A stretch of 64,000 bases of DNA from Alphaproteobacteria bacterium (GCA_965222575.1 OZ244958.1:128001-192000); one strand, 5' to 3'; counted from the first letter of the stretch, positions 11,343 to 61,075 are shown. Program-made: numbers and translations. Notes: generated by a model not told the origin, from the letters alone.

Positions 11343-11503
11343 GAGGAATTTTTAAGTGTGTCTTGCGTTGGAAAAATACTGCTACTGCCTTACAGTAGCC
11401 TTAAGAATAGTATAACAAGAGGGCAGGGGAAAGGAAAATTTTTTCGTGCATGTTAATAGGATTGGTGATATGCTCCTAAGTTAAGATAAGGGTGAGACAG
11501 GTT

Positions 11504-11812
11504 ATGGAAACGCTAGCCTTAATTTTTCATGTGATGATAAGTATCACGATGATTATTGCAATTATTTTGCAAAATCTAGACGTTTCTGGTGCCTTAGGCA
11601 TAGGGAACACGAATATAGGGTCAGGTGGGGTACGCGTTGATATGCCAACGAAGTTAACGGCATGGTTAGGGGTGCTGTTTTTTTGTACCTCTTTAGGCAT
11701 AGCGATGTTATCGGGAGGAAATCAAAGTTTGATACCGCCCGCACCGCCTAGTGTTCCGCAAGTCCCTCTTCCGGGTATTTCCTCTTCTGGTGAGGAAGGG
11801 TCTAGTTCGTGA
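11504..11812 (+). CDS. secG: Preprotein translocase subunit SecG
   Basis: Two TM helices, IILQ, KLTAWLGVLFF; upstream of pyrG. Confidence 0.85.
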   Translation: METLALIFHVMISITMIIAIILQNLDVSGALGIGNTNIGSGGVRVDMPTKLTAWLGVLFFCTSLGIAMLSGGNQSLIPPAPPSVPQVPLPGISSSGEEGSSS

Positions 11813-11846
11813 GGCAGGGAAGACTTGTCACCAACACTTCTGTGTA

Positions 11847-13490
11847 ATGCGAAAGTACATTTTTATTACAGGAGGGGTTATGTCATCCTTAGGGAAAGGG
11901 GTAGCCTGTGCTTCCATGGGTGCCCTTTTACAAGGATGTGGTTATCAGGTACGGTTGAGGAAGTTAGACCCGTATTTTAACATAGACCCCGGCACTATGA
12001 ATCCCTATCAGCATGGGGAAGTCTTTGTAACGGAAGATGGACAAGAAACAGACTTAGATTTGGGACATTATGAGCGTTTTACCAATGTGAATACCTCTGC
12101 TAATAGCAATATCACCTCTGGGAGGATTTACCAAGAAGTCCTGGAGAAGGAGCGGCGCGGCGAGTACTTGGGAAAGACCATACAGGTTGTCCCCCACATA
12201 ACGGAGGTTTTGAAGAAGTTTATTTTTTCAGGCTCTAAGAAGGAGGAGATTAACATTTTGGAGATAGGGGGGACGGTAGGCGATATTGAGTCACAGCCTT
12301 TTCTAGAAACCATACGTCAAATTGGCCAGCAGTTACCACGGAAAGATGTTTTGTATCTGCACCTGACTTACGTTCCTTACCTAAAGGCACCGGGAGAGCT
12401 TAAAACGAAGCCAACGCAGCACTCGGTAAAGGAGCTCAGAGCCATGGGGATACAGCCTGATATTTTGTTATGCCGCTGTGATAGAAGGTTGCCCTCAAAG
12501 GAACGAGAGAAGATATCGCTGTTTTGCCAACTCCCTAAGAGTTGCGTCATAGAAGCCATTGATACGGATAATATTTATAAAGTGCCGTTATTATTAGATG
12601 AGCAGGGGTTACCGGAGCAGGTATTGTCTCACTTTGAATTGCCGTCTAAGAAGAAAAACTTAGGGAAGTGGGAGAGGATAGAGAAGGCATTAGCAGCTCA
12701 GTCTCGTTCAAAGAAGAAAGTAACAATTGGTGTGATAGGGAAATATACAGGGCTTAGGGATTCCTATCGTTCAATTGAAGAGGCGCTTTTTCATGGCGCT
12801 CTTCATCATGGAGTAGACCTAACGGTACGATTACTGGATTCCTCGCGTCTTGAGAAGTCATTAGAGCCGTTAACCTCCTGTGATGGGCTATTGATTCCGG
12901 GAGGCTTTGGCACGCGGGGGTTAGAAGGGAAAATCAAAACGGCAGGGTATGCACGCGAGCAGCGCATTCCCTTTTTTGGTATCTGTTTAGGGTTACAGGT
13001 CTCCGTAATTTCCTTTGCGCGCGATGTCTGTTCTCTCAAGGGAGCAAGCACTATGGAAGAGGCAAAGACTCCGCCGGTAGACCCTGTGATTTGTACTTTA
13101 CACCAGTGGTTATCGGCTGGACTCGTAGAGAAACGTTCCGGGAAGGAATCCAAAGGGGGAACCATGCGTCTAGGATGTTATCCCTGCCATCTGAAACACA
13201 ATAGTCTGATTCAGAAAATTTACCAAAAGAAAAAGGTATTGGAAAGACACCGTCACCGTTATGAACTCAATGGGAAGTACAAATCTCTCTTTGAAGCCAA
13301 CGGTCTCATTGCCAGTGGTCTATCAAAGGACAATCAGTTGATAGAAGCTATGGAATACACCCCTCACCCGTGGTACATAGGGGTTCAATTTCACCCGGAA
13401 TTCGCTTCACGCCCCTTTGAGCCACACCCTCTTTTTGTTTCGTTCATAGAAGCGACTCTTATGAAGCATGAGAGCAGCAGTAAGGGGTAG
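11847..13490 (+). CDS. pyrG: CTP synthase
   Basis: MRKYIFITGGVMSSLGKG, GICLG, ERHRHRYE, QFHPE. Confidence 0.98.
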   Translation: MRKYIFITGGVMSSLGKGVACASMGALLQGCGYQVRLRKLDPYFNIDPGTMNPYQHGEVFVTEDGQETDLDLGHYERFTNVNTSANSNITSGRIYQEVLEKERRGEYLGKTIQVVPHITEVLKKFIFSGSKKEEINILEIGGTVGDIESQPFLETIRQIGQQLPRKDVLYLHLTYVPYLKAPGELKTKPTQHSVKELRAMGIQPDILLCRCDRRLPSKEREKISLFCQLPKSCVIEAIDTDNIYKVPLLLDEQGLPEQVLSHFELPSKKKNLGKWERIEKALAAQSRSKKKVTIGVIGKYTGLRDSYRSIEEALFHGALHHGVDLTVRLLDSSRLEKSLEPLTSCDGLLIPGGFGTRGLEGKIKTAGYAREQRIPFFGICLGLQVSVISFARDVCSLKGASTMEEAKTPPVDPVICTLHQWLSAGLVEKRSGKESKGGTMRLGCYPCHLKHNSLIQKIYQKKKVLERHRHRYELNGKYKSLFEANGLIASGLSKDNQLIEAMEYTPHPWYIGVQFHPEFASRPFEPHPLFVSFIEATLMKHESSSKG

Positions 13491-13500
13491 AGGAGATTTT

Positions 13501-14193
13501 TTACAGTGGGATGGTCTGAAGTGTTAAGGTTGTAGACCAACGATTGGTTTCCTCTTGGATAAGAGGTGTCATGTGTCCTTTGACACAGCGCCATACATAT
13601 TGATTGTGTTCGACAGCACCGAGAAAGAAAGGCTTTGTTGCAAAGTCAGTGACATGGGCAAACTCCTCCCAATGAGAGAGAGTATCAGGGGTGATAAAAG
13701 CGAAGGTTAAGGTTCCTTGTGTGAGGATATTGCGCAGGGAGGTGTGCAAAGCCCCTGTGTAGAGTTTTTCAAGTTGGAGTTCCGCCTGTTCTGTGAAACG
13801 ATAGGGGAGGAGTGGAGGGAAGACATTGAGTTGTTTCCCTGCTATCACATGAGAGGCATAGAGGGGGGTTTTGAGTCGTAAAGCGCCGTAAAAAGGTTGT
13901 GAAAATTCCAATGTGATGACGAAACGCTGAGGGGTCGAGAGTTTGGGGGGGTAGGGGGGGGTATAGTGAAACTGGATGGTGGGGGTTTGAGGAGGAATAG
14001 GGGCATGATGGTGGGGGTTTTCCTCTGATAGGAGGAGTGTGTGTGGGGTGTGGTTATGTTGTGTTGTGAGTCCTATGAGGGCTATATGTGTGGCATTTTG
14101 TAGTAGCGGTGTTGGGGTATTGCGGTCTAGTGGATATCCCAAAGGCGTGTGTTGTCCGAAGAGGAGTTTGAAATGGAAGGGTTCTGTTGTCAT
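13501..14193 (-). CDS. Phage-derived hypothetical protein (putative distal tail/hub)
   Basis: Directly follows the tape-measure-like gene; C-terminal RWSTTLTLQTI resembles distal-tail proteins; positional inference. Confidence 0.45.
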   Translation of the reverse strand: MTTEPFHFKLLFGQHTPLGYPLDRNTPTPLLQNATHIALIGLTTQHNHTPHTLLLSEENPHHHAPIPPQTPTIQFHYTPPYPPKLSTPQRFVITLEFSQPFYGALRLKTPLYASHVIAGKQLNVFPPLLPYRFTEQAELQLEKLYTGALHTSLRNILTQGTLTFAFITPDTLSHWEEFAHVTDFATKPFFLGAVEHNQYVWRCVKGHMTPLIQEETNRWSTTLTLQTIPL

Positions 14194-14871
14194 TTACAGT
14201 CCGTTATCTATGACAAGTGTTTTCAGATGAGCCCGTTTACGGTTTTGAGCGATTTCCATGAGGTCATCTAAGAGGCGTTCAGGGTCGTGTTGTTTTTGTA
14301 GAGAAACGTTAATAGTGATGTGTTGTTGTGTGTGTTGTGGTATTGGGGTTGGGCGCTCATCAGAAAGTAACCCTCCTTTTTTAAGCTGTGGAATTTTGTG
14401 TTCATTGATTTGTTTGAGGAGTGGATAAAAAGCTCTTGTAGCGCGTGCATTGACAATGAATTCCCCGTCTGAGAGGGCAATAATATTGGCATCATTTGTT
14501 GGAGAGCCTTTTCCTTTGAAGAGGCCGCCTTTTGAGAAAGAAGGGAAGGAGGGAGAGGAGGAGGAAGGGCTTTGTGAAGAGAGGGAGGTTTTGAGGCTTC
14601 GAAAGGATTGAGCAAGGTTTCTGTTTTGTTGTGAGAGGATAGAGACGGCTTTAGCGGCAGAGGAGAGGGATTGGGTATAGGCTTTACTATTGTTTTTCAG
14701 TATGTTGAAGGATTGGGAAAGGGTGAAGGTATATTTGAGGGTTTCCATGAAGGAGGCGGCAACGTTACTAGCGTGTTGCTTGAGGGTTTTGAGGGAGGAA
14801 GAGAGGGTATTAACTTGCTGTGAAGCGTTTTGAGTAGAAGCGGTGACTTCGAGTTCAACAGAAAGCGTCAT
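14194..14871 (-). CDS. Miniature tape-measure-like protein
   Basis: N-terminal Ser/Ala-rich helical region, then FSKGGLFKGKGSPTNDANIIALSDGEFIVNARATR (C-terminal tape-measure motif F-x-x-GG...LS-x-GEF-V). Confidence 0.7.
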   Translation of the reverse strand: MTLSVELEVTASTQNASQQVNTLSSSLKTLKQHASNVAASFMETLKYTFTLSQSFNILKNNSKAYTQSLSSAAKAVSILSQQNRNLAQSFRSLKTSLSSQSPSSSSPSFPSFSKGGLFKGKGSPTNDANIIALSDGEFIVNARATRAFYPLLKQINEHKIPQLKKGGLLSDERPTPIPQHTQQHITINVSLQKQHDPERLLDDLMEIAQNRKRAHLKTLVIDNGL

Positions 14872-14877
14872 GGGGAA

Positions 14878-15291
14878 TCAGGAGAGATGTTCAATGGAGA
14901 ATCTATCCATCCAGAAGAGTCCACTTTCTATGATATCCATGAGGGTACCCAGTGAGAAGAAGACTTTGAAGGGAAAGGGATGTGTGAGGAGAGCGTTTCT
15001 AACGGTGCGGCGTTGTTTTTCCAGTGTGATGATAGCACGCGAAGTATTGACGCGGGAGGAGTGTTGTGTTGTGGTGCCTTGGATACCGAAGATGACGCCA
15101 ACGGTAGTGGTCATATGAGCTGTATTGGTATTGCCTAGAGGTTCATTAGCTTTTTGTTGCAGGGGTGTCATGAGGAGGCAAGGGATGGTATAGTTTTCTA
15201 TATTTTGCGTTTGCAGGAGCCACTGAATATCGTGCTTACGGGCAAGAACTTCAAAGACCTCTTGAAATGGTGAGGTGATGAGGGGTGTCAT
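14878..15291 (-). CDS. Putative phage tail terminator/neck protein
   Basis: Position after gpG-like gene; 137 aa; C-terminal GLFWMDRFS resembles Gp37-like terminators. Confidence 0.5.
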   Translation of the reverse strand: MTPLITSPFQEVFEVLARKHDIQWLLQTQNIENYTIPCLLMTPLQQKANEPLGNTNTAHMTTTVGVIFGIQGTTTQHSSRVNTSRAIITLEKQRRTVRNALLTHPFPFKVFFSLGTLMDIIESGLFWMDRFSIEHLS

Positions 15292-15695
15292 GAGGAGCGT
15301 GTGGGGTTAAGGTCTGAGAGGATATCCTTTATGAGGGTTTGGATATGGTCGTGATGGAGTCCGAGGAAAGGTCTTGCGGGCACAGTTTTTGTTCCGAATT
15401 GATGGAGTGGTGCATAGTGGAGGGGTGAGCCAACGGAGAAAGCGTTGTGTCGGAGATGTATGAGGAAGGAATTTTTGAGTTGGCCGGTTTTGACGAGGGC
15501 TTTACGTTTGGGGCGTTGATTTTTAAGAGGGGCCCAATGTTTGCCGTCTGGGGTGCGTTGAGAGAAGAATCGATGACGGGTTTCTTCAAGAGCATGGTGT
15601 GCATTTTTTCGCAGAGCCCCTTGGATATTCATCTCCGCCATTCTTTCAATAGCATGAAGAACAGAAGAGAAATTGCGAAGCGCAAAACGCATCAC
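15288..15695 (-). CDS. Phage virion morphogenesis protein (Mu gpG-like)
   Basis: RFFSQRTPDGKHWAPL, LVKTGQLKNS, VGSPLHYAPLHQFG, VPARPFLG. Confidence 0.9.
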   Translation of the reverse strand: MMRFALRNFSSVLHAIERMAEMNIQGALRKNAHHALEETRHRFFSQRTPDGKHWAPLKNQRPKRKALVKTGQLKNSFLIHLRHNAFSVGSPLHYAPLHQFGTKTVPARPFLGLHHDHIQTLIKDILSDLNPTRSS

Positions 15696-16051
15696 TGATG
15701 AGACACACGTTGTGTTTGTACGCCCGCCATGAGAGGTTTTTTGTGTTCGGTATCGCCTAGAGAAATTTTTCGTTGTGCAACATTTTGTAGGAACGAAATA
15801 GCATCCTCATATCGTTTCGCAATGGAAGGCGGCACATCAAAGACAAACAACCGAAAGCAAACGATATCAAAGACAGCCGTTGCAATAGCTCTGATAGCCC
15901 ACTGATTAGTCCCTTTAGGCATAACGCTTGCGGTATAACCGAAGGCAAGGGCATTGCTATCACTGAGGACTTCTCTTAGGAGAGAATCCTGCCAAGAGAT
16001 ATCGCTAGCAGTTAGTCGGTCTTTACAAGCCTTGAGGTCAAGATATTCCAT
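15692..16051 (-). CDS. Mu gp36-like head-tail adaptor (DUF1320)
   Basis: DIVCFRL...KRYEDAISFLQNVAQRKISLG. Confidence 0.85.
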   Translation of the reverse strand: MEYLDLKACKDRLTASDISWQDSLLREVLSDSNALAFGYTASVMPKGTNQWAIRAIATAVFDIVCFRLFVFDVPPSIAKRYEDAISFLQNVAQRKISLGDTEHKKPLMAGVQTQRVSHQ

Positions 16052-16052
16052 A

Positions 16053-16928
16053 CTAACTCATCCATGGTGTAACAAGGAGAGAAGCAGAATCCTTCCAGAT
16101 ATTAGACGCATTAGAAGATACTGTGTCAGCATAGAGAATTTTTCGTGCATCCTCTTCTAGTGCAGGCGGTACAACAAGGAGATTCGGCATGATTCCTAAA
16201 GAGATGTTGTCTTTTCCTTTGAGGTTTTGGAGAGCCTGCCTAGCAGTTTTATAAGTCGCAGCAGAAAGTGCGGCCTTAGAGCCATAAGCGAGTTGCCAAA
16301 GCCCGAACCCTGCTGCTACGCGCGCCGTAACACCAAAGAGCAGTTCATCTCTACGATAAACAGTATCAGAGTCCATAGTATCAAGGGAATCGAAACGATA
16401 ATCCTTTCTGACTTGCCAAATGAGGGGTTTCAAAGCCTGAGAGGTATCCATTAACACCCAGGGAGTGTCTGATCCACCAGCAGTATTACTATTATCCGTC
16501 CCGCGCTCTGTTGAAAAGAAGGGCTTCCCATCGTAAGCTTTTGCTGTCCACCCTTCTTTGAGAAGTGAGAAGAGAACGGCATTAGGGTGCTGGGCTGCTT
16601 GTCGTCCGAGGATACGGGCTCGAGTGGCGTAGAGTCCATATTTATCGTCGTCTATATCATCCTTTTTGACAGAGATAGTCTTTTCGTACTTCTTATTCTT
16701 GATAGCAAAGGAGTGACCAGAGAGTTCAGACACAGCACGTTCGCCTATCCATTCTTTGAGGCTATGGTCATCGGAAAGCCAAGCATAATCTTCCGTATCA
16801 GAAGTCGAGTTCACAATAAGGGCAATCTTTTTATAGTCACCAGCTGCCGGAGAGACAGAAAGTCCTTCTTGGAAAGCGGTTTTGTATCCTGTGTTAAGCC
16901 GTAAGGTAAAATTGGTATCAAAAGTCAT
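16053..16928 (-). CDS. Mu-like major head subunit gpT
   Basis: EDYAWL, EWIGER, IKNKKYEKTISV, YDGKPFF, LKPLIWQ, GFGLWQLAYGS, LLVVPPALE. Confidence 0.95.
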   Translation of the reverse strand: MTFDTNFTLRLNTGYKTAFQEGLSVSPAAGDYKKIALIVNSTSDTEDYAWLSDDHSLKEWIGERAVSELSGHSFAIKNKKYEKTISVKKDDIDDDKYGLYATRARILGRQAAQHPNAVLFSLLKEGWTAKAYDGKPFFSTERGTDNSNTAGGSDTPWVLMDTSQALKPLIWQVRKDYRFDSLDTMDSDTVYRRDELLFGVTARVAAGFGLWQLAYGSKAALSAATYKTARQALQNLKGKDNISLGIMPNLLVVPPALEEDARKILYADTVSSNASNIWKDSASLLVTPWMS

Positions 16929-16972
16929 GGTCTGTATAGGGGATTGTGTGTTGAGGTTAAGGGAGGAAATTC

Positions 16973-17365
16973 TTAAGTAACAAAGACCCAAACTTTGCCA
17001 TCATCAAGCCCGATGACTTTGCCAAGTTCGGTAGAACCACTAGAGGTTTTAGTAACGGTATAGCTGTCGTGAATATGGACCTTTTTACCAACTTCAGTGA
17101 TTCCAACAGCAGCATTACTTGCGGCGTTCGTAAAAAGATAGGCTTCATTGCGCCTAATGACAATCTCTTTGTCACCATTCTCTCCTAATTGATTGTCCAC
17201 GGAATGGTCAGCAATACCAATAACAATAAGATTTTCTGCTTTTGTGGCTTCTTTAGCATATCCACCGTCTAAGATAACAATATGGCCTTTATCAATTTTT
17301 GTTTCGCCCTTGACAGGGACTTTACAAAGAGTTCCAGTAGTTCTTAAGGTATTAATAGCAGTCAT
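16973..17365 (-). CDS. Putative capsid decoration/cement protein
   Basis: Between protease and capsid; IGIADHSVDN..GENGD, VGKKVHIHDSYTV, GKVIGLDDGKVWV. Confidence 0.7.
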   Translation of the reverse strand: MTAINTLRTTGTLCKVPVKGETKIDKGHIVILDGGYAKEATKAENLIVIGIADHSVDNQLGENGDKEIVIRRNEAYLFTNAASNAAVGITEVGKKVHIHDSYTVTKTSSGSTELGKVIGLDDGKVWVFVT

Positions 17366-17374
17366 AATGTCTCC

Positions 17375-18253
17375 TTATGATGTAGTGTTCTGTTGATTAG
17401 CCATGAAAAGTGGGTAAGAAATGCCCATTTTTTGGCAAAATTCTTTATCGGATTCCGGCGCGGGTTTGAGGGAGCTTTTAGCGGTGTGAATAGGAAGGGA
17501 AGGCTCAAAGAGAGGTTTCAGAGCAGAAAGGATTTCTTCGCACTCTTTAGGGTTCTTTACAGCGAAACAGTTGATAGCAGGCCTTAAGGCTGGCATGAGG
17601 GCGCCGGATTGGATGGTTTGGTCAATGAGTTGCGTGAGTGGCGCTGAAGGCTGTTGTAGAGTCTCGTCTTTATGTTTTAGGACTTGCGTTGAAGCTACAG
17701 GGTTTTTCTTTTCCTGTTCTTTCTCATTATGGAAGAGAGAGGTCATATTGAGGTTAGGGATATTGGTTAAGGAAACGCGTTTGAGAGCAAGCACAATGAA
17801 GGCGTCGGTTTTTTTGTTATCGATTAAAAGGCGTTGTTTTTCGACTTTGAGGACAGGAGAGAGGGAGCGGTATTCTTTATTTTGGATAGCGTTTTTACCG
17901 ATTTCTGTCCATAGAATGCGGGCTTTGAGGGTATTGTTTTCTTGGAAGAGTTCTTGTATCCATCCAGCAGCTTTAGAACTAGCCCCTTTATCTGTGGAAT
18001 GGTCAAAGTCCACGGCAATGGGGAGGTCTGTGCTAAGGATAATGTCTTCAAGGCTTTTGATGATAAAGGGTCCACGTCCATCCTTTCCATAGAAGGGAGA
18101 TTGCGCGGGCAGGATTTGTATGATATGAGGAATACTGCTTTGGTGCGTTGAGGAGTCCTGTGGCACAATGAAGACAGATTCAGGAAGAGGCATAGTGGAA
18201 GTTGTCATAGTTTTGCTATTATGGAAGAAAGAGGAAAAGAAGTTCAGAGGCAC
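17375..18253 (-). CDS. Mu-like prohead protease/scaffold (gpI)
   Basis: IQILP, GKDGRGP, VDFDH, AAGWI, WTEIG..AIQNKEYRSLSPV, SLTNIPNL; alternative start at 18208. Confidence 0.9.
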   Translation of the reverse strand: MPLNFFSSFFHNSKTMTTSTMPLPESVFIVPQDSSTHQSSIPHIIQILPAQSPFYGKDGRGPFIIKSLEDIILSTDLPIAVDFDHSTDKGASSKAAGWIQELFQENNTLKARILWTEIGKNAIQNKEYRSLSPVLKVEKQRLLIDNKKTDAFIVLALKRVSLTNIPNLNMTSLFHNEKEQEKKNPVASTQVLKHKDETLQQPSAPLTQLIDQTIQSGALMPALRPAINCFAVKNPKECEEILSALKPLFEPSLPIHTAKSSLKPAPESDKEFCQKMGISYPLFMANQQNTTS

Positions 18254-18280
18254 TTTTTTTTTGACCGGGAGGATTCTGTT

Positions 18281-18613
18281 TTAGAGAGCTTTATGTACAG
18301 TAATACTGAGAGAGGCAGGGTTATTAGGAGTGATATGTAGAGAGCCTGCGAGGTCTCTGAAAGAGATACTGATACGCCACTGTCCGATTTGGTTAAAGGT
18401 CTCTTCGTAGAAAGAGAGTTTGATGATTCCTTTTTGTGCATTGTGTACGGAGGCCTGTGGAGATTTCAGGGCGGGGGATTTTTCAAGGGCGGCACGTGCT
18501 CTTATGTCCCAGATATCTGAGAGGTCAAGAGGCTGGTGTGTGTTCGTGTTGAGCAGTTGCAGAAGGAGAGGTGCAGACGAAAACTGAACGAGATGAAAAT
18601 GTAAAAGCGTCAC
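18281..18613 (-). CDS. Phage protein, BppU-N-like (baseplate/tail-fibre associated)
   Basis: PLDLS..., NAQKGIIKL, IGQWRISI, SITV pattern; by-eye resemblance only. Confidence 0.45.
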   Translation of the reverse strand: MTLLHFHLVQFSSAPLLLQLLNTNTHQPLDLSDIWDIRARAALEKSPALKSPQASVHNAQKGIIKLSFYEETFNQIGQWRISISFRDLAGSLHITPNNPASLSITVHKAL

Positions 18614-18622
18614 GATGGGTAT

Positions 18623-18826
18623 TTAGCTAACGAAGACAATGTAATGGTGAGCGGAGAGGTATTGATTTGGCGTGACAAAAGCCCCGGCAGTGAGACTGAT
18701 ATTTTTCTTCAGGGAAAAGAAGGCATTAGCAACATACACATTTCGACCATTAACTTCGAAGGTAAGGAGTGTAGAAAGGTTTTCGAGTGCTGTTTCCTGT
18801 GGAGTACTTAGTTGTGGGAGTGTCAT
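18623..18826 (-). CDS. Phage-cluster hypothetical protein
   Basis: ATG overlaps the upstream stop (ATGA); fills the operon. Confidence 0.45.
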   Translation of the reverse strand: MTLPQLSTPQETALENLSTLLTFEVNGRNVYVANAFFSLKKNISLTAGAFVTPNQYLSAHHYIVFVS

Positions 18827-19116
18827 GAGTTTTGTAAGAGGGTTTGCATAATGAGATTGGCTTCAGAGATTTTCGCAATGAGTTGTTGGTTCCATTTAAT
18901 AGTTGAGGCTTTAGCGAGGAAGAAAAGGTCTTGAATAGAGAAGCCGCCCCATGCGTTCTCATGATGTGTGCAGGCGTAAGGGTTTTGAGAGAGCAGTGTG
19001 AAGAGGGGGGTATTTTCTTTCATAATCCAGAATTTATTGTCATAACGGAAAAGAGGGTGTTGTGGAGTTTCGATGAGCAAGGAGTGGTTAGGGCTTCTGT
19101 CCTCTAGTTGATACAA
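18823..19116 (-). CDS. DUF1799-like tail chaperone extension (GT part), probably made by -1 frameshift
   Basis: WIMKEN..LF...GFSIQ pattern; lies in the -1 frame of the upstream chaperone. Confidence 0.55.
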   Translation of the reverse strand: MYQLEDRSPNHSLLIETPQHPLFRYDNKFWIMKENTPLFTLLSQNPYACTHHENAWGGFSIQDLFFLAKASTIKWNQQLIAKISEANLIMQTLLQNS

Positions 19117-19490
19117 AGAGGCCAGAGCCCTTGTGAGTTTTTTCGTTCTAGGGAGGTTGCGTAGTGTTTTTGAGTCTCTTCTATTCCGAAAAGGATAGAA
19201 AGGTAAGCGGTGACAAGAGCGCTTAAAACAGCAGGCATATTGAGAAGTGCGTGCTTGACTTGTTGAGAGAAAGCTAGTGGTTTATTGTTACGATTGACAA
19301 GGTCTGAAGCGTTGATGAAGGCTTTTTCCATGAGGAGTTTATCGGCATTTTTGCTATTGATGAGGCTTTTGATTTCGTGAGCAGAGAAGGTGAGAAACGT
19401 TGCAATGAAGGACTGGTTTTTTTCTTGTAGGGTGATGAGAGCGTTGAAGGGCACGGGACGTTGAGAAAGGATAAACATGCTGAGTTTCAA
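19104..19490 (-). CDS. Phage tail assembly chaperone
   Basis: Follows the tail-tube-like gene; NRNNKPLAFS..LL..PAVLSALVTAY..ERKN. Confidence 0.65.
   Translation of the reverse strand: MKLSMFILSQRPVPFNALITLQEKNQSFIATFLTFSAHEIKSLINSKNADKLLMEKAFINASDLVNRNNKPLAFSQQVKHALLNMPAVLSALVTAYLSILFGIEETQKHYATSLERKNSQGLWPLCIN
19137..19143 (-). promoter_or_regulatory. Programmed -1 frameshift slippery heptamer A AAA AAC
   Basis: In-frame CGA AAA AAC; the -1 frame reads KLTRALASLYQLEDR into ORF 18823-19116. Confidence 0.7.
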
Positions 19491-20419
19491 GTAGTGGTAG
19501 TGAAGGTAATGGAGATAGTTTCTGTATCAAGGTTAGTAGGCAAGGCTTGGAATTGGGTATTGAGCATGGAGATTTCTTGGAGTGTCTCTTTTTGACATTG
19601 TAGGAGGTGTGCTTTAGGGAGTTCTAAGGTAAGGGTTGAGTGCAGGAAGTTTGTGGTATCAGAAGTTGTCATGGCAAGACTGAAACTAATTTTTTTCTTT
19701 TGGAGGGGTTTTTGGAGGTCTTGAAGGAATTTTTGTGAGAGCTGGTTATGAGGAATGAGGATTTGAGTATAGGGTGTTTGGAACTGTTGAGTGATAGTGT
19801 TTTTCGAAGCGAGAGGGAGGGAGGAATTTTGGACATTGGTGTGGAGAGTAGCATCATAGAAAGAGAAGAGAGCATCGTTGATTTTACAGGAGAGGGTTTT
19901 AGAGAAAGGAGGAAGTGCGGGTAAGTCGGGCGTGGGTTTTTTTGAGGCTAGGATTTTTGGCAGACCAAGAGCTGAGAAGGAGATGAAGGGGAAAGGGTTT
20001 TGAAAATGGAAGGAGGCACTGATTTTGAGTTGAGAAATTTGGTATTGCGTTTGTGCATGTTGGAAGAAGAGAGAAACATCAGGTGTTGAGGCTTGTGAGA
20101 AGAGAAATTGGGTTGGGTCTCCCGGTTTTTTAGAAAAGCCACAAGCTGTGAGAAGTTGGAGATATGAAGGAAGTGGACTTAAGGAGTCTTTTTTTTGGGG
20201 AGAGAGGAGGCACTTGAAATCAACTTCTTGAGAAACGAAGGTGTTAAGAGTGAGTTGAGAAGAAGCCTTTGTTGCAAACGCCATTGTTGTGTTATCACTG
20301 TAGATTAGCTGTGTTCTAAAATCGAAGACCTGTAGTGGGATGATGGTTTCTATACTGTTTTGCGTAAAAGTACAGAATATAGTATGCGGGCGCTCTTGGA
20401 AGAAAGTATCTTGGGTCAT
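19487..20419 (-). CDS. Putative major tail (tube) protein, highly diverged
   Basis: 310 aa, LLTACGF motif, immediately upstream of the chaperone pair. Confidence 0.55.
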   Translation of the reverse strand: MTQDTFFQERPHTIFCTFTQNSIETIIPLQVFDFRTQLIYSDNTTMAFATKASSQLTLNTFVSQEVDFKCLLSPQKKDSLSPLPSYLQLLTACGFSKKPGDPTQFLFSQASTPDVSLFFQHAQTQYQISQLKISASFHFQNPFPFISFSALGLPKILASKKPTPDLPALPPFSKTLSCKINDALFSFYDATLHTNVQNSSLPLASKNTITQQFQTPYTQILIPHNQLSQKFLQDLQKPLQKKKISFSLAMTTSDTTNFLHSTLTLELPKAHLLQCQKETLQEISMLNTQFQALPTNLDTETISITFTTTT

Positions 20420-20443
20420 GTGCTTATAAGAAGAAAGGTTGAG

Positions 20444-20776
20444 CTAGTGAGAAAGGAATCGTTTTTTCCATCGCATGATGGTCTGCCTATTGACTTTAAG
20501 GACTTGAGCAGCTTTATAAGTGGAAAGAGCATGAATGACTTGCAAGTACTCTGGCTTCCATTTTCCTGCGCCCCTAGAGCTTTGTTTGATAGGGAGATAC
20601 AAGAAATCGCCGCCAAAGATATGAATAAGAGCCTTGGCTTTTTCATCCCCGACAGCAGAGCGGATTTTGCTATTTTTGTGTTTGGGAATATAAAGCCTTC
20701 CGCCCCCCGTGGATTGAATAAGACCCTGAAAAGCTTTTTCCCCTATTAAGTCTTTTACCCATTGAATAACTGTCAT
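20444..20776 (-). CDS. Mor/C-like transcription activator
   Basis: Duplicated GG-x-x-(L/F)Y(I/L)P motifs and a C-terminal HTH (AAQVLKVNRQTIMRW). Confidence 0.75.
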   Translation of the reverse strand: MTVIQWVKDLIGEKAFQGLIQSTGGGRLYIPKHKNSKIRSAVGDEKAKALIHIFGGDFLYLPIKQSSRGAGKWKPEYLQVIHALSTYKAAQVLKVNRQTIMRWKKRFLSH

Positions 20777-21104
20777 CAGAAAAAGAAAATCATTTGTAAT
20801 AAAATTACTGTAATAAGCTTTTTCCTGAAATTTTAGAGCAACTATAAAAAGGGGAAATATACCGATAATTGGTTAGTATGAAAAGATTTTTGGGGTCTCT
20901 TTCAGAAAATTGAAAGGAAAAAAATACAAAAAAATTCATAGAAAATTAATCTTCTCAGGAAAGATAAAACTCTAAGAGAGGAAACATGAAAAATGAACAA
21001 GGTGGTGCGTTAGCATTGCGGGTATTTTAGTATATATTACTTTACGCAAAAGGGTAATATAAATTATATTTTTTCTTTCTTAGCAAAAATACTCAAGAGG
21101 TGTA

Positions 21105-21713
21105 ATGAAAGGGGCAAAGAAGTTGAAGAGATTCCATAAGAAGTTACGCGATTTAGTGGAGGAGTGCTACAAGGGGAATTGGTCTTCTATGGGTCGTGCG
21201 TGCGGAATTAGTCCGACAAGTTTACAACGTCTAAAAGAAGGAGGGTTTCCACGCTTAGAGACACTATTGAAGCTCAGTCACGGGTTAAAGATAGATATAG
21301 ACAGTTTATGCACTGAAGAGGCACTCGGGGAAGGAGGAGAGACAGTACGCATTAAAAGGTTTGGTTCTAAAGAGCAGTTTTATGGCTTCAGTCGCTCGTG
21401 GTTAATTGCACGCGGGTTACTGGATTGTCCGCTTTGCGTAGCAGAAATAGGGGAAGATGATAGTCTATTGCCTGAGTTTCAGCGCGGGGATTTGTGCTTA
21501 CTACAAGTTGGAGATAAGGATTTGAAGAGTGGAAGTCTATACGGTTTATTCATTGAAGGAGAAGTGTTATTGCGTTATGGGTCTCATTTTCCGGACGGGT
21601 ATCTTTTTCACGGAAGTAGAATAGAGAAGGGGTACTATAAGTTAGGGGAGCAAGGATTTTCTCAGCAATCCATTATAGGGAGACTAGTTGGATGTCTGAA
21701 AACCTACAATTAA
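21105..21713 (+). CDS. CI-like repressor (XRE HTH + S24-like domain)
   Basis: CGISPTSLQRL..GGFPRLETLLKL, DDSLLPEFQRGDL, IIGRLV; divergent from the phage operon. Confidence 0.8.
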   Translation: MKGAKKLKRFHKKLRDLVEECYKGNWSSMGRACGISPTSLQRLKEGGFPRLETLLKLSHGLKIDIDSLCTEEALGEGGETVRIKRFGSKEQFYGFSRSWLIARGLLDCPLCVAEIGEDDSLLPEFQRGDLCLLQVGDKDLKSGSLYGLFIEGEVLLRYGSHFPDGYLFHGSRIEKGYYKLGEQGFSQQSIIGRLVGCLKTYN

Positions 21714-21738
21714 AATTGACAATTGAAATTGTTGAGAA

Positions 21739-22090
21739 GGGCTAGCCCTAGGGGGCAACCCCCTTGGGAAAATCCCTTGTGAGTCCTTATGTGAGTCGCT
21801 TCTGTGAAACCCCCTTGGGGGAAAGCCCCTTGGGGCAACCCCCTTGGGGGGAAATCCCTTGTGAGTCCTTATGTGAGTCGCTTCTGTGAAAGCCCCTAGG
21901 GGCAACCCCCTTGGGGGAAAGCCCCTTGGGGCAACCCCCTTGGGAAAATCCCTTGTGAGTCCTTATGTGAGTCGCTTCTGTGAAAGCCCCTAGGGGCAAC
22001 CCCCTTGGGGGGAAATCCCTTGTGAGTCCTTATGTGAGTCGCTTCTGTGAAAGCCCCTAGGGGCAACCCCCTAAGGGGTTCCCCTAGCCA
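21739..22090. repeat. Array of 4 copies of a ~39-bp core (aatcccttgtgagtccttatgtgagtcgcttctgtgaaa) separated by palindromic ccccttgggg/cccctagggg linkers
   Basis: Read directly; a fifth core copy is at ~23190. Confidence 0.95.
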
Positions 22091-22095
22091 ATCCC

Positions 22096-22845
22096 TTACG
22101 GATTATGAGGAATGGTGCCGTAAAAGCCTCCTCCTGAGCGAGGTGTTTGGATATCACCTACCTCATAGACAAGAAAGTTCAGGGTGCCTAGTAATTTCGA
22201 GACATCTGTAATATTATGCTTTGTTCTGTAAGCAAAAAACTTCACCGGGTCCTCCACTATTAACTTCCCATAAACTGTGATTGTCCTTGGTGCTGCAGCA
22301 AGGAGCCTGTTGTTGCGATGGAAATGAGAATCGTCAAATAGCAAATAGCTCACTGGTGACTCACGGGGCTTAAACACCTCCAGGTCAGCAACATCATTAA
22401 GCGTATTCCCAGTGGACTTCTTCAGAGTGCCATCGCCGGCGGTTTTTTTAAAAGTTAACTCTAACGCCACTCCCGCCTCTTCCAAATCAAGAGACCCCTC
22501 AATATATGAAACCTTTATAAATGCATGAGCGGCATAATCGGTGTCGGTGCGCCCTAAAAAGTAGGATTTCACATACGGGTCAAGAGTGAATTCCCCTACC
22601 TGTGCCCAGTTACCAACAGGAGTGGCATTCTCACATTCTGTGATTCCATTCTCGTCTAACGCACACTCAATATTTTCCCCTTGATTCAGTTGTATCGGGG
22701 TCACAGTATAAGCCCCAAAGTTTAGGTGTGTATCTACTGTAATGTCAGGCGCTGCTAAAAGGAGTTGCCCTCCTAAGAGGAAACCTCCTAGGAGGAAACC
22801 TCCTATGGCAAGGTAACTGACAGAGATTTTGAAAGTCTTCTTCAT
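22096..22845 (-). CDS. Orphan secreted hypothetical protein
   Basis: 249-aa ORF, signal-peptide-like N-terminus, SD aaggag. Confidence 0.7.
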   Translation of the reverse strand: MKKTFKISVSYLAIGGFLLGGFLLGGQLLLAAPDITVDTHLNFGAYTVTPIQLNQGENIECALDENGITECENATPVGNWAQVGEFTLDPYVKSYFLGRTDTDYAAHAFIKVSYIEGSLDLEEAGVALELTFKKTAGDGTLKKSTGNTLNDVADLEVFKPRESPVSYLLFDDSHFHRNNRLLAAAPRTITVYGKLIVEDPVKFFAYRTKHNITDVSKLLGTLNFLVYEVGDIQTPRSGGGFYGTIPHNP

Positions 22846-22869
22846 GGTCTATAGGCTCCTTTGTTGATG

Positions 22870-23103
22870 TTGCCTATAGACGGATTGCCTATAGACGGAT
22901 TGCCTATAGACGGATTGCCTATAGACGGATTGCCTATAGACGGATTGCCTATAGACGGATTGCCTATAGACGGATTGCCTATAGACGGATTGCCTATAGA
23001 CGGATTGCCTATAGACGGATTGCCTATAGACGGATTGCCTATAGACGGATTGCCTATAGACGGATTGCCTATAGACGGATTGCCTATAGACGGATTGCCT
23101 ATA
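22870..23103. repeat. Perfect tandem repeat, 15 x ttgcctatagacgga plus a partial copy
   Basis: Read directly. Confidence 0.98.
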
Positions 23104-23132
23104 TAATAGGACGATTCCAAGCCCCTTGTCAA
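23103..23132 (-). promoter_or_regulatory. Sigma70-type promoter for gene 22096-22845
   Basis: Minus strand TTGACA-N18-TATTAT. Confidence 0.55.
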
Positions 23133-23133
23133 G

Positions 23134-23162
23134 AAAAAAAACTCCTAATCCTTAGGAGTTTT
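23134..23162 (-). terminator. Rho-independent terminator downstream of lolD
   Basis: aaaactccta/taggagtttt inverted repeat followed by a T-run on the minus strand. Confidence 0.65.
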
Positions 23163-23167
23163 ATTGG

Positions 23168-23296
23168 GGGGGGGAACCCCTTGGGGGGAAATCCCTTGTG
23201 AGTCCTTATGTGAGTCGCTTCTGTGAAACCCCCTAGGGGCAACCCCTTAAGGGGAAACCCCCTTTTTCTCCATGCCCAGGGCTAGCCCTAGGGGCT
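23168..23296. repeat. Single copy of the 21.7-kb repeat unit next to the lolD stop
   Basis: Same core; gggctagccctagggg also matches 21739. Confidence 0.9.
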
Positions 23297-59949: not shown

Positions 59950-59952
59950 CAC

Positions 59953-61075
59953 CTCCCCCCTGCCCTCTTTTCTCCCTCTAAAGCCTTCCCTCCTGCTCTC
60001 TTTTCTCCTCTAAAGTCCTCCCCCCTGCTCTCCTCCTCTGCTCTCTTTTCTCCTCTAAAGTCCTGCTTCCTCCTGCTCTCTTTTCTCCTCTAAAGTCCTC
60101 CCCCCTGCTCTCTGCCCTTTTTTCTCCCTCTAAAGCCTTCCCTCCTGCTCTCTTTTCTCCTCTAAAGCCTTCCCCCTGCTCTCTTTTCTCCTCTAAAGCC
60201 TTCCCTCCTGCTCTCTTTTCTCCTCTAAAGCCTTCCCCCCTGCCCTTTTTCTCCCCTAAAGTCCTGCTTCCTCCTTCTTTGAAGGCTTTGAGGGTTGTAG
60301 CCACCAGTAATTAATCAGACAAAGCGTTATCAAAAAGCCTCCCCTCCTGCCCTTTTTTCTCCCCTAAAGTCCTTCCCCCCTGCTCTCTTTTCTCCTCTAA
60401 AGCCCTCCCCCTGCTCTCTTTTCTCCTCTAAAGCCTTCCCTCCTGCTCTCTTTTCTCCTCTAAAGCCCTCCCTCCTGCTCTCTTTTCTCCCCTAAAGCCC
60501 TCCCCCTTGCTCTCTTTTCTCCTCTAAAGCCTTCCCCCCTGCCCTCTTTTCTCCTCTAAAGTCCTCCCCCCTGCCCTCTTTTCTCCTCTAAAGTCCTCCC
60601 CCCTGCTCTCTTTTCTCCTCTAAAGTCCTCCCCCCTGCCCTCTTTTCTCCTCTAAAGTCCTCCCCCCTGCTCTTTTTTCTCCTCTAAAGCCTTCCCCCCT
60701 GCCCTCTTTTCTCCTCTAAAGTCCTCCCCCCTGCCCTCTTTTCTCCTCTAAAGTCCTCCCCCCTGCTCTTTTTTCTCCCCTAAAGTCCTCCCCCCCTGCT
60801 CTCTTTTCTCCTCTAAAGCCTTCCCCCCTGCCCTTTTTTCTCCTCTAAAGCCTTCCCCCCTGCCCTTTTTTCTCCTCTAAAGCCTTCCCCCCTGCCCTTT
60901 TTTCTCCCCTAAAGTCCTCCCCCCTGCTCTCTTTTCTCCCCTAAAGTCCTCCCCCCTGCCCTTTTTTCTCCCCTAAAGCCTTCCCTCCTGCTCTCTTTTC
61001 TCCTCTAAAGCCTTCCCTCCTGCTCTCTTTTCTCCTCTAAAGCCTTCCCTCCTGCTCTCTTTTCTCCCCTAAAGT
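59953..61075. repeat. Pyrimidine-rich tandem array, ~32 copies of a ~30-bp unit (cctgctctcttttctcctctaaagccttcc) with an embedded 97-bp gene-end copy
   Basis: Read directly; 60248-60344 equals 61061-61157. Confidence 0.97.

What the first reader, a model, noticed from the sequence alone, without database searches (positions are those of the whole stretch)
13501..21713. Streamlined Mu-like head / short-tail operon: candidate new gene transfer agent or domesticated phage particle
Seen: one minus-strand operon of 14 abutting or overlapping ORFs with no visible frameshifts or IS scars. Order: Mor-like activator, tail tube, chaperone pair, two small ORFs, Mu-type protease/scaffold, decoration protein, gpT capsid, gp36, gpG, terminator, 225-aa tape measure, distal-tail-like gene. 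A divergent CI-like gene sits upstream, and the cluster lies among housekeeping genes. Absent here: transposase A/B, terminase, portal, gpF, sheath, lysis. Tail genes precede head genes, unlike the normal phage order. Most genes carry the strong local compositional bias, suggesting long residence, while the capsid remains highly recognisable. Established: GTAs are host-domesticated phage structural clusters, often split across loci, and RcGTA-type elements have an HK97-type head module rather than Mu gpI/gpT/gp36/gpG. Inference: an independent domestication of a transposable (Mu/D3112-like) siphovirus, as a GTA with packaging genes elsewhere or as a portal-less protein shell.
Basis: partly seen in the sequence, partly recalled or inferred. 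Interest (0 to 1): 0.85.

Follow-up and report, generated by a model that had tools for sequence, protein, structure and literature searches.

The report
Old immobilised Mu-like phage operon
A small bacterial genome carries the head and tail-shaft genes of a Mu-like phage that can no longer move, has taken on the host's own mutational signature yet kept every reading frame open, so it may be a domesticated particle-maker, though no function has been shown.

Summary
Window 13501-20776 (minus strand) is one run of 14 tightly packed ORFs. They are a Mor-like activator, a tail tube, a chaperone pair, two small ORFs, gpI protease/scaffold, a decoration protein, gpT capsid, gp36, gpG, a terminator, a 225-aa tape measure and a 230-aa orphan. 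A weak CI-like gene lies divergently upstream, and housekeeping genes flank the cluster.

The genome is 1.2 Mb, alphaproteobacterial by its pyrG. New findings:
- A Mu portal and the genome's only large terminase found lie 20 kb away.
- No Mu-type transposase was found.
- A second Mu-head cluster with a contractile tail has a frameshifted baseplate J.
- A third phage region carries tail-tip, fibre and lysozyme genes.

Eight of the 14 cluster genes sit at the host's extreme strand-specific composition at four-fold sites, outside the range of 429 homologous phage genes. Even so, 160 codons that are one transition from a stop remain open, and there are no frameshifts. This points to long residence under purifying selection, not a recent split prophage.

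Against a working machine: the tail genes are strongly drifted, the gene order is rearranged, the tail tip is missing, and two ORFs may be one gene broken by a TAA. GTA function is possible but untested.

The parts
21105..21713 (+). CI-like regulator, divergent from the operon (202 aa)
   Evidence: HTH_3 3.5e-4, 21 bits, below cut-off. phrog_8 6.2e-5 and phrog_4 repressor 6.4e-4. Its coding GC3 skew is +0.36. The same chromosome strand is G-rich here as over the operon.
20777..21104 (.). Divergent intergenic control region
   Evidence: Lies in the window's lowest-GC kilobase, 0.38. Promoter-like sites face both ways (minus 20884-20856; plus 21010-21038 and 21041-21070). The regional count equals chance: 11 found against 10.5 expected.
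20444..20776 (-). Mor-like late activator (110 aa)
   Evidence: phrog_836 late transcriptional activator 6.7e-14. Pfam Mor 2.6e-4, below cut-off.
19487..20419 (-). Probable major tail tube (310 aa), strongly drifted
   Evidence: Atlas 0.97, 29 of 30 hits in Phage_tube_2 clusters. phmmer E 9.8e-5, colinear, to the L025 tube of 309 aa, which hits PF18906 at 2.4e-5. hhalign to that tube family: probability 13.5%, E 0.002. No Pfam or PHROG hit. No real relative among 1.84 billion representatives. Codon position 1+2 GC skew of -0.54 is the lowest of 1000 ORFs.
19104..19490 (-). Tail assembly chaperone, G-like (128 aa)
   Evidence: phmmer E 1.7e-5 to the 109-aa ORF just after the tube in L048. hhalign best hit is a family 4.1 kb downstream of capsids. 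Weak phrog_569 hit.
19137..19143 (-). In-phase slippery heptamer A_AAA_AAC, 31 nt before the G-like stop
   Evidence: Read from the sequence. The next ORF is in the -1 frame, which is open from at least 19200. Such in-phase heptamers occur at 0.0044 per codon genome-wide, so this is suggestive only.
18823..19116 (-). T-like ORF in the -1 frame of the chaperone (97 aa)
   Evidence: Frame and 13-nt overlap. No family hit.
18623..18826 (-). 67-aa ORF of unknown role
   Evidence: No hit. Shares a frame with the next ORF across one TAA.
18281..18613 (-). 110-aa ORF of unknown role, possibly the second half of a 181-codon gene broken by a TAA
   Evidence: Read through with X, it still has no PHROG hit.
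17375..18253 (-). Mu gpI-type prohead protease/scaffold (292 aa)
   Evidence: PF10123 4.3e-22, N-terminal half only. Keeps the invariant D82, H85, W98, W115-T116, S132-P133 and N164/P166.
16973..17365 (-). Head decoration / virion structural protein (130 aa)
   Evidence: phrog_1731 5.6e-31 and phrog_122 head decoration 0.0057. Homologues lie just before the capsid in 57 of 80 related loci.
16053..16928 (-). Mu gpT major capsid protein (291 aa from the ATG at 16928; a TTG-started ORF reaches 16991)
   Evidence: PF10124 8.4e-98. The called protein in the public collection is 291 aa. The nearest other proteins are at most 50% identical.
15692..16051 (-). Mu gp36-like head protein (119 aa)
   Evidence: PF07030 1.6e-07.
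15288..15695 (-). gpG / virion morphogenesis protein (135 aa)
   Evidence: PF05069 4.8e-16. Keeps 14 of 14 conserved columns.
14878..15291 (-). Probable tail terminator (137 aa)
   Evidence: PF23840 5.6e-4, 20.2 bits, below the cut-off of 27. 24% identical to the ORF at the same position in element B, E 9e-13.
14194..14871 (-). Very short tape measure protein (225 aa)
   Evidence: phrog_3547 1.2e-12 and 13 further families, mostly TMP. Most match C-terminal parts; one weak match is to an N-terminus. Residues 104-158 match 1060-1116 of 1207-1210-aa TMPs. No relative of 123-394 aa found.
13501..14193 (-). 230-aa orphan in the first post-TMP position; its stop lies 10 nt from the stop of convergent pyrG
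   Evidence: No Pfam, PHROG or phmmer hit. Atlas 0.90 to unnamed viral clusters of 219-243 aa. AlphaFold pLDDT 28.8.
11400..22000 (.). Block (pyrG to CI-like) whose strand skew is opposite to both flanks: a local inversion
   Evidence: Plus-strand GC3 skew is +0.13 to +0.72 inside the block, for genes on either strand. It is -0.16 to -0.83 in genes to the left and turns negative again from about 24 kb.

Best explanation
The cluster is the late operon (head plus tail shaft) of a Mu-like siphovirus that became fixed in this chromosome long ago. It cannot transpose, because no Mu-type transposase was found in the genome. Its parts have been shuffled. The tube and chaperone genes now precede the head genes. 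The matching portal and the only large terminase found sit 20 kb away behind at least ten housekeeping genes. The tail tip is gone. The whole block, together with pyrG, was inverted recently.

While resident, the cluster acquired the host's extreme strand-specific mutation signature. Nonsense and frameshift mutations were nevertheless purged, so selection acting over that residence maintained it. That selection was most plausibly at host level.

Most likely present role (inferred, not shown): under a CI-like/Mor switch it makes a gpT/decoration capsid, matured by a gpI protease that keeps its invariant His and Ser (taken here as catalytic). The capsid would carry a very short tail of roughly 34 nm, taking about 1.5 Angstrom per tape-measure residue (a recalled rule). 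Portal and terminase would be supplied in trans. This would be a defective-phage or GTA-like particle. The head is under tight constraint and the tail under loose constraint.
For: Composition:
- Four-fold-site GC skew of the coding strand is -0.68 to -0.78 in 8 of 14 genes. The 10th percentile of host lagging-strand ORFs is -0.75.
- None of 429 homologous genes in 80 related viral loci falls below -0.60.
- The sign follows the chromosome strand, not the coding strand. The CI-like gene and pyrG on the other strand have the opposite coding sign.

Open frames:
- 160 CAR/CGA codons stay open, although T makes up 0.49 of synonymous pyrimidine sites. Neutral equilibrium would give about 78 stops.
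- There are no frameshifts across 7.3 kb.

Conserved residues:
- gpI keeps its invariant Asp/His/Ser.
- TerL keeps 23 of 27 invariant columns, including Walker A/B, and reads without a stop over 428 residues.
- The capsid keeps 52 of 64 conserved columns, against 48 for element B.

Other points:
- The chaperone ORF has an in-phase A_AAA_AAC, with the next ORF in the -1 frame.
- A second sample's 12.8-kb contig differs at 9 sites in the cluster. Five are isolated changes and all are synonymous. The other four are nonsynonymous and clustered in tube codons 98-105. There are no indels.
- Head proteins have normal amino-acid composition while tail proteins are drifted.
- The portal and terminase exist.
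- Capsid A with capsid B, and the separate portal with portal B, are sister pairs. Support is 99 to 100 with FastTree, and 98 for the capsid under LG+C20 on 37 of the 67 viral rows.
Against: - Missing parts: no tail hub or tip, no fibres, no MuF (the only copy is in element B) and no recognisable small terminase. The 93-aa ORF beside TerL looks like a lysis-region membrane protein.
- The order differs from 18 of 18 related siphoviral loci. Portal-then-terminase is also the reverse of the relatives' order.
- The tube and the 230-aa protein are among the 14 most drifted of 1000 ORFs at codon positions 1+2, and the tube is the most extreme. Tube, T-like, 67-aa, 110-aa and 230-aa ORFs have no profile hit.
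- The 67-aa and 110-aa ORFs may be one gene with a TAA.
- The portal is 400 aa, against 512-627 aa in the 12 relatives listed of 38.
- Portal and TerL four-fold skew is about +0.08, unlike the cluster.
- Other phage loci here are decaying. Baseplate J of element B is split across two frames. The J-like protein of region C covers only positions 214-748 of a 1565-position profile.
- No relative holds an orthologous cluster: 2 of 40 same-class genomes have a gpT. One of them, fetched with flanks, shows the ordinary order. The other sits on a 5.2-kb contig.
- The polymorphism count is too small for a dN/dS estimate.
Confidence: 0.5

Rival explanations
1. It is a functionless cryptic-prophage remnant. 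The operon was kept intact for a long time as part of a working element. It has since lost the tail tip, MuF, the small terminase and linkage to portal and terminase through recent rearrangements. It is now drifting, with too little time elapsed for frameshifts to accumulate.
For: - Missing parts and rearranged order.
- A very recent inversion shows the region is being reshuffled.
- A possible nonsense codon lies between the 67-aa and 110-aa ORFs.
- Tail proteins have extreme amino-acid drift.
- Two other phage loci in the same genome show a frameshifted or truncated essential gene.
- Promoter-like sites are at chance level.
Against: - Thirteen or fourteen frames are open despite about 78 expected stops at neutral equilibrium, and there is no frameshift in 7.3 kb.
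- All five isolated strain differences are synonymous.
- The invariant active-site residues of gpI and the ATPase/nuclease motifs of TerL are retained.
- A 1.2-Mb genome with tightly packed genes is an unlikely place for 7 kb of junk to persist (inference).
Confidence: 0.33
2. Only the head genes are functional. gpI, the decoration protein, gpT and gp36 build a protein shell used by the cell, with or without the portal, while the tail genes are relics.
For: Codon position 1+2 skew is normal for gpT (0.00), gp36 (+0.02) and the decoration protein (+0.31). It is -0.26 to -0.54 for the tube, chaperones, TMP, terminator, gpG and the 230-aa protein. The capsid is by far the best conserved gene.
Against: The tail ORFs are just as free of stops and frameshifts. 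The tube keeps the family's length: 310 aa against a median of 317 for the family, and 309 aa in three of the four loci listed. The slippery site is retained. gpI itself is drifted at -0.27. An intact terminase is retained in the genome.
Confidence: 0.08
3. It is part of a still viable, inducible Mu-like phage whose genome is merely split by assembly or rearrangement.
For: Portal, terminase, tail-tip, fibre and lysozyme genes all exist somewhere in the genome.
Against: - No DDE_2 or rve transposase was found in a genome that is a single contig and 97.6% complete. The rve control rang in 6 of 14 genomes; the DDE_2 control rang nowhere.
- The loci lie 20 kb and about 800 kb apart, separated by housekeeping genes.
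- The loci have different compositional histories.
- A contig from a second sample shows the same cluster with pyrG, pepA and PhoX on its left side.
Confidence: 0.02

Closest known systems
Mu-like siphoviruses (transposable phages with a gpT/gpI head and a Phage_tube_2-type tail; D3112/B3-type by recall), here represented by IMG/VR contigs L025, L048 and L093
   Same: They share gpI, decoration protein, gpT, gp36, gpG, terminator, a tube of about 310 aa, chaperone, TMP, a Mor-type activator, a Mu portal and a Terminase_6 TerL.
   Different: - Here there is no transposase, MuF, small terminase, lysis genes or tail tip in the cluster.
- The tube and chaperones lie upstream of the head genes instead of about 2.5 kb downstream of the capsid.
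- The TMP is 225 aa, against 857, 1527 and 2071 aa in the related siphoviral loci where it was read and 1207-1210 aa in its phmmer matches.
- Portal and TerL are 20 kb away and in reversed order.
- The composition is host-like, not phage-like.
RcGTA-type gene transfer agents of Alphaproteobacteria
   Same: Both are phage-derived structural gene sets without replication or integration genes. Both sit in an alphaproteobacterial chromosome with accessory loci elsewhere. Both have a short tape measure. These RcGTA properties are partly recalled; the review passages seen describe the packaging and terminase features.
   Different: The head is Mu gpT/gpI, not HK97. PF05065 was not found in this genome, while the control rang in Caulobacter. 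No conservation across relatives can be shown. No small terminase was recognised. No particle or transfer data exist.
VSH-1 (Brachyspira) and BaGTA (Bartonella): independently domesticated GTAs, VSH-1 with a 'divided genome'
   Same: They set a precedent for independent domestications and for split loci. This rests on reference titles and passages in PMC11841831.
   Different: The phage ancestry is unrelated (recalled, not checked here). Those agents have experimental proof of particles and transfer. This cluster has none.
Element B of the same genome (G000:C1:284045-302187)
   Same: Its capsid is the sister of this capsid (49% identity; support 99 with FastTree, 98 under LG+C20). It has the same order from gpI to the terminator. 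It too lacks a terminase and a transposase, and it lies among housekeeping and ankyrin genes.
   Different: B has its own portal and a MuF-PBECR2 fusion. It has a P2-like contractile tail with baseplate V/J/I, fibre, sheath, tube and TMP. Its order is canonical and its skew moderate and leading-type (+0.03 to +0.61). Baseplate J is split across two frames.

Membership tests
Mu-like phage morphogenetic (late) module | gpT-family major capsid protein | tested here: met
   PF10124 8.4e-98, 327.7 bits against a cut-off of 20.1.
Mu-like phage morphogenetic (late) module | gpI-family protease/scaffold with conserved active-site residues | tested here: met
   PF10123 4.3e-22. The invariant D82, H85 and S132-P133 are kept. 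Overall it keeps 19 of 28 columns conserved in at least 90% of 20 phage homologues. That these are the catalytic residues is my inference from their invariance.
Mu-like phage morphogenetic (late) module | Mu-type portal and large terminase next to the head genes | tested here: not met
   Both exist but lie 20 kb away at G000:C1:118280-121055, in the order portal, 93-aa ORF, TerL. Relatives have TerL then portal directly upstream of gpI.
Mu-like phage morphogenetic (late) module | MuF (gp30) head protein | tested here: not met
   PF04233 has one match in the genome, in element B.
Transposable (Mu-like) phage as a mobile element | DDE transposase A (and B) | tested here: not met
   PF02914: no match, but that control rang in none of 14 genomes. 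PF00665 rve: no match, with the control ringing in 6 of 14 genomes. MuB was not searched. A Mu-type HTH (PF02316) occurs only on a primase-like protein in region C.
Siphovirus tail module | Tube, G/GT chaperone pair with -1 frameshift, tape measure, terminator | tested here: inconclusive
   The TMP is met. Tube and chaperone are supported only by weak, colinear matches and the atlas. A slippery heptamer is present, with a chance of about 0.1 by my rough estimate from the rate. The terminator hit is below cut-off.
Siphovirus tail module | Distal tail protein, hub/tip and receptor-binding proteins | tested here: not met
   Nothing follows the 230-aa orphan, because pyrG abuts it. J-like, DUF1833, a 158-aa structural protein and three fibre genes exist only in region C near 956-973 kb.
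Gene transfer agent (any type) | Phage-derived structural genes that cannot propagate themselves | tested here: met
   There are no replication, transposition or integration genes in or beside the cluster, and no transposase in the genome.
Gene transfer agent (any type) | Maintained by purifying selection / vertical inheritance in a host lineage | tested here: inconclusive
   Open frames at host-equilibrium composition argue for past selection. All five isolated polymorphisms are synonymous, which is too few to be decisive. No genome closer than the same class is held. Two of 40 relatives have a gpT and none has this arrangement.
Gene transfer agent (any type) | Particles that package random host DNA and deliver it to other cells | not testable with these tools
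   This needs EM, sequencing of DNase-protected DNA and transfer assays.
RcGTA-type GTA | HK97-type capsid (PF05065) head module | tested here: not met
   No PF05065 match in the genome. The control rang in 4 of 14 genomes, including Caulobacter.

The most novel reading that the evidence does not exclude
An independent, Mu-derived gene transfer agent in a reduced alphaproteobacterial genome in which no HK97-type (RcGTA-like) capsid was found. Its 'genome' would be spread over at least three loci:
- portal and terminase at 118-121 kb;
- head, short tail shaft and Mor/CI switch at 141.5-149.7 kb;
- tail tip, fibres and lysozyme near 954-973 kb.

It would package host DNA into small gpT heads.
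Probability: 0.15. Interest if true: 0.8.

Novelty: new variant of a known kind. Interest (0 to 1): 0.55.

Why it matters
Known gene transfer agents come from a handful of independent domestications. In three full-text searches I saw none built on a Mu gpT/gpI head.

If this cluster is active, it would be a new origin of a GTA-like particle, in a small ankyrin-rich genome where gene exchange is otherwise hard to explain.

If it is inactive, it is still a useful case. The host's very strong strand-specific mutation bias acts as a clock and an orientation marker. It separates old from young phage DNA. It dates an inversion. It also shows which phage proteins stay constrained (capsid, decoration, gp36) and which drift (tail) during long residence.

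Tried and rejected
- AlphaFold without an alignment failed for the 310-aa protein (mean pLDDT 34.9) and the 230-aa protein (28.8). I therefore ran no fold search. I did not fold the 310-aa protein with the tube family as its alignment, because that would impose the fold rather than test it.
- phmmer of the 310-aa protein against 1.84 billion representatives gave one hit. It was a 2888-aa protein matched in 22 stretches, which I read as low complexity.
- The search for homologous proteins with the 225-aa TMP found nothing among proteins of 123-394 aa. I did not run the 'longer' search.
- tblastn of 17 cluster and packaging proteins against the 80 related viral loci gave no hit at 1e-4 for the 230-aa protein, terminator, gp36, 110-aa, 67-aa, 97-aa, 128-aa, 310-aa, Mor or 93-aa ORFs.
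- The first hhalign run timed out. In the rerun the 310-aa, 230-aa and 128-aa queries met all 106 families, but the 97-aa query met only 21 of 106. The 93-aa, 110-aa and 67-aa queries met all 106.
- The Shine-Dalgarno test was uninformative. Only the decoration gene of the 14 has a clear AAGGAG, but housekeeping genes on the C-rich strand also mostly lack one.
- Promoter-like and terminator-like sites were at chance level.
- I compared the upstream regions of the packaging locus, cluster A, element B and region C by eye only. I saw no shared motif.
- BLASTP of the cluster's 310-aa protein against the genuine Phage_tube_2 protein of region C gave no similarity.
- Reading the 67-aa and 110-aa ORFs through with X gave no PHROG hit.
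- No flanking inverted repeat that would explain the inversion stood out.
- No RNA holder was listed among the sequencing runs, so expression could not be examined. Parts of the stretch without cover in run X3 are not interpreted.
- Papers: I saw only listings and abstract starts, and passages of PMC11841831. I did not open the 36 papers that hold both 'gene transfer agent' and 'Mu-like', so a Mu-type GTA could be described in one of them. Supplementary files were not consulted.
- Rejected reading: that the skew is a property of the phage. The sign follows the chromosome strand, and none of 429 homologous phage genes is as skewed.

Full report
**What is there.** Window 13501-20776 holds 14 minus-strand ORFs packed end to end. 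Profile searches name most of them:
- Mor-like activator: phrog_836, 6.7e-14.
- gpI protease/scaffold: PF10123, 4.3e-22.
- Decoration/virion protein: phrog_1731, 5.6e-31.
- gpT capsid: PF10124, 8.4e-98.
- gp36: PF07030, 1.6e-07.
- gpG: PF05069, 4.8e-16.
- 225-aa tape measure: phrog_3547, 1.2e-12.
- Terminator: weak, PF23840, 5.6e-4, below cut-off.

- The 310-aa protein scores 0.97 in the protein atlas, with 29 of 30 neighbours in Phage_tube_2 clusters.
- It matches, colinearly, the 309-aa tube of a related Mu-like contig (phmmer E 9.8e-5 in a database of 2,812 ORFs). That tube hits PF18906 at 2.4e-5.
- The 128-aa ORF matches the ORF directly after the tube in another related contig (E 1.7e-5).
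- The 128-aa ORF carries an in-phase A_AAA_AAC 31 nt before its stop, and the 97-aa ORF lies in the open -1 frame. Such heptamers occur at 0.0044 per codon genome-wide, so I rate this as suggestive, with a chance of about 0.1.

The 230-aa last gene remains an orphan. The 67-aa and 110-aa ORFs share one frame across a single TAA, so they may be one broken gene. The divergent 202-aa gene is only weakly CI-like. The flanks are housekeeping genes.

**The rest of the genome.** The window is G000:C1:128001-192000 of a single-contig genome of 1,215,846 bp, 97.6% complete. Its pyrG is at most 56% identical to anything in the protein collection. The named hits among the 120 listed are Alphaproteobacteria.

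- A Mu portal (400 aa), a 93-aa ORF and the only Terminase_6C-type large terminase found (428 aa) lie at 118280-121055. That is 20 kb left of the cluster, beyond ndk, an M24 peptidase, rmuC, mreB, iPGM, two S41 peptidases, PhoX, pepA and pyrG.
- The order, portal then terminase, is the reverse of that in related phage contigs.
- The 93-aa ORF has an N-terminal hydrophobic stretch and a coiled-coil-like remainder (my reading of the sequence). Its best match is a gene family from the region upstream of the terminase in related phages (probability 33%). It does not look like a small terminase.
- MuF occurs once, in another element.
- No DDE_2 and no rve transposase was found. Only the rve control rang.
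- No HK97 capsid was found.

**Two more phage regions.**
- Element B (284045-302187, minus strand) has portal, a MuF-PBECR2 fusion, gpI, decoration, gpT, gp36 and gpG. These are followed by a P2-like contractile tail. It has no terminase, and housekeeping genes lie beyond ankyrin genes on its right. Its baseplate J is split over two frames.
- Region C (about 954-992 kb) was found by blasting all ORFs of the 80 related viral loci against all genome ORFs. It holds a phage lysozyme, a J-like tip protein that covers only part of the J profile, a DUF1833 minor tail protein and three collagen/S74 fibres. It also holds a 158-aa structural protein, a clear Phage_tube_2 tube (9.3e-43) and replication genes.

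**Composition as a clock.**
- The genome has a very strong replication-type GC skew, up to about 0.3-0.5 per 10 kb. The cumulative minimum is near 570 kb and the maximum near 1140 kb.
- At four-fold sites, ORFs on the inferred leading strand have median coding skew +0.21. Those on the lagging strand have -0.33, with a 10th percentile of -0.75.
- Eight of the 14 cluster genes lie between -0.68 and -0.78. gpT is at -0.35 and gp36 at -0.22.
- The homologous genes of 80 related viral loci (429 genes) have median -0.11 and never fall below -0.60.
- The sign follows the chromosome strand. pyrG and the CI-like gene, on the other strand, are G-rich in their coding strand.

I therefore read the bias as acquired in place, over a long residence. 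The block from pyrG to the CI-like gene (about 11.4-22 kb) has the sign opposite to both flanks. It was therefore inverted recently, after the bias had built up.

The portal/terminase locus (about +0.08) and region C (about 0) do not share this history, or are in transit after their own inversions. The skew alone cannot link them to the cluster.

**Selection.**
- The cluster contains 160 CAA/CAG/CGA codons, each one C-to-T change from a stop. T makes up 0.49 of synonymous pyrimidine sites. Neutral equilibrium would therefore give about 78 stops. There are none, or one if the TAA between the 67-aa and 110-aa ORFs counts.
- No frameshift interrupts 7.3 kb.
- gpI keeps its invariant Asp, His and Ser. 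TerL keeps 23 of 27 invariant columns, including the Walker motifs. The capsid keeps 52 of 64 conserved columns, against 48 for element B.
- A 12,785-nt contig from a second sample of the same study differs at 23 sites. Nine are in the cluster: five isolated changes, all synonymous, and four nonsynonymous changes crowded into tube codons 98-105. There are no indels. This fits purifying selection but is far too small a sample.
- A third run, from another study, holds near-identical short pieces.

**Signs of relaxation.**
- At codon positions 1+2 the tube has the most extreme skew of 1000 ORFs (-0.54), and the 230-aa protein is among the lowest 14.
- TMP, chaperones, terminator, gpG and gpI lie between -0.26 and -0.34.
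- gpT (0.00), gp36 (+0.02), the decoration protein (+0.31) and Mor (+0.07) are normal.

The head shell is under tight constraint and the tail under loose constraint.

**Anatomy compared with relatives.**
- In the related contigs the order is TerL, portal, MuF, gpI, decoration, gpT, gp36/gpG, terminator, tube, chaperones, then a TMP of 857-2071 aa and the tip genes.
- Here the tube and chaperones sit between Mor and gpI.
- The TMP is 225 aa. Its significant match is to the C-terminal part of long TMPs, with one weak N-terminal match. No short relatives were found. That pattern fits an internally shortened protein.
- The operon ends 10 nt from pyrG.
- The capsid has no relative above 50% identity among the listed hits from 5.8 billion proteins.
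- In trees, capsid A and capsid B, and likewise the separate portal and portal B, are sisters. Support is 99 and 100 with FastTree. For the capsid it is 98 under LG+C20 on 39 rows, 37 of the 67 viral rows plus the two queries. Long branches and shared host composition could inflate this.
- None of 40 same-class genomes has an orthologous cluster. One of the two with a gpT shows the ordinary phage order.

**Verdict.** The 'recent split prophage' explanation is unlikely.

My best reading, at 0.5, is an old, immobilised Mu-like late operon that selection has kept readable. It may still make a capsid-based, short-tailed particle with portal and terminase supplied in trans.

A functionless remnant that lost its function only recently is the main rival, at 0.33. 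It is favoured by the missing tip, the shuffled order, the drifted tail genes, the possible nonsense codon and the decay seen in the genome's other phage loci.

A true GTA is possible, at about 0.15, but nothing here tests particle formation, packaging or transfer. No RNA run is listed, no close relatives are held, and the structure predictions failed.

Noticed in passing
whole genome G000:C1 (window 1-64000 included): The replication-strand GC skew is exceptionally strong, up to about 0.3-0.5 in 10-kb windows. The cumulative minimum lies near 570 kb and the maximum near 1140 kb. Many short patches of reversed sign suggest frequent local inversions.
   Followed up: partly
window about 11400-22000: The block holding pyrG, the phage operon and the CI-like gene has strand skew opposite to both flanks, so it is a recent inversion of about 10.5 kb. 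No clear flanking inverted repeat was found.
   Followed up: partly
G000:C1:284045-302187 (loci L006, L007): A second Mu-head cluster has a P2-like contractile tail, a MuF-PBECR2 nuclease fusion, a SocA/Panacea gene inside the tail module and a methyltransferase-like 150-aa ORF. Ankyrin genes lie beside it and it has no terminase. Its baseplate J is split across two frames.
   Followed up: partly
G000:C1:954051-990138 (loci L096, L097): A third phage region carries lysozyme, a Fic/DOC-MerR gene, a truncated J-like tip, DUF1833 and three collagen/S74 fibre genes of 832, 1517 and 2110 aa. It also carries a genuine Phage_tube_2 tube, a ClpP/SDH-type protease-like gene, an M78 peptidase, a helicase and a primase-like protein with a Mu-type HTH. 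Four-fold skew is near zero.
   Followed up: partly
G000:C1:110098-118183 (locus L005): Type III restriction (res) and methylase genes and a 192-aa ankyrin-repeat protein lie next to the portal/terminase pair. Two unannotated plus-strand ORFs (115689-116618 and 116770-117162) have very C-rich coding strands, like the drifted tail genes.
   Followed up: no
window 22810-23148: A perfect 15-nt tandem repeat of about 16 units encodes (GNPSI)n in a 96-aa minus-strand ORF, just upstream of a 249-aa ORF with a hydrophobic N-terminus (my reading of the sequence).
   Followed up: no
window 21732-22078 and 23151-23254: Repeats of about 67 nt have a palindromic CCCCTAGGGG core and lie directly right of the CI-like gene. 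The 10-nt core occurs 20 times in the genome. They may mark the right end of the inversion.
   Followed up: partly
window about 59950-61050: A polypyrimidine tandem array of about 33-nt units (CCTGCTCTCTTTTCTCCTCTAAAG...) is interrupted once. It gives GC skew -0.72 and AT skew -0.56 in that kilobase.
   Followed up: no
G000:C1:121056-121275 (upstream of the separate portal): A direct repeat of about 95 nt contains a C9-10 run immediately upstream of the portal gene.
   Followed up: no
window 20324-20521: In the second sample, a low-depth 206-nt contig (depth 13 against 49) carries 14 differences and one inserted base, and has a joint that 'goes back 198' at the Mor/tube junction. It could be a minor variant, a repeat or an assembly artefact.
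   Followed up: no
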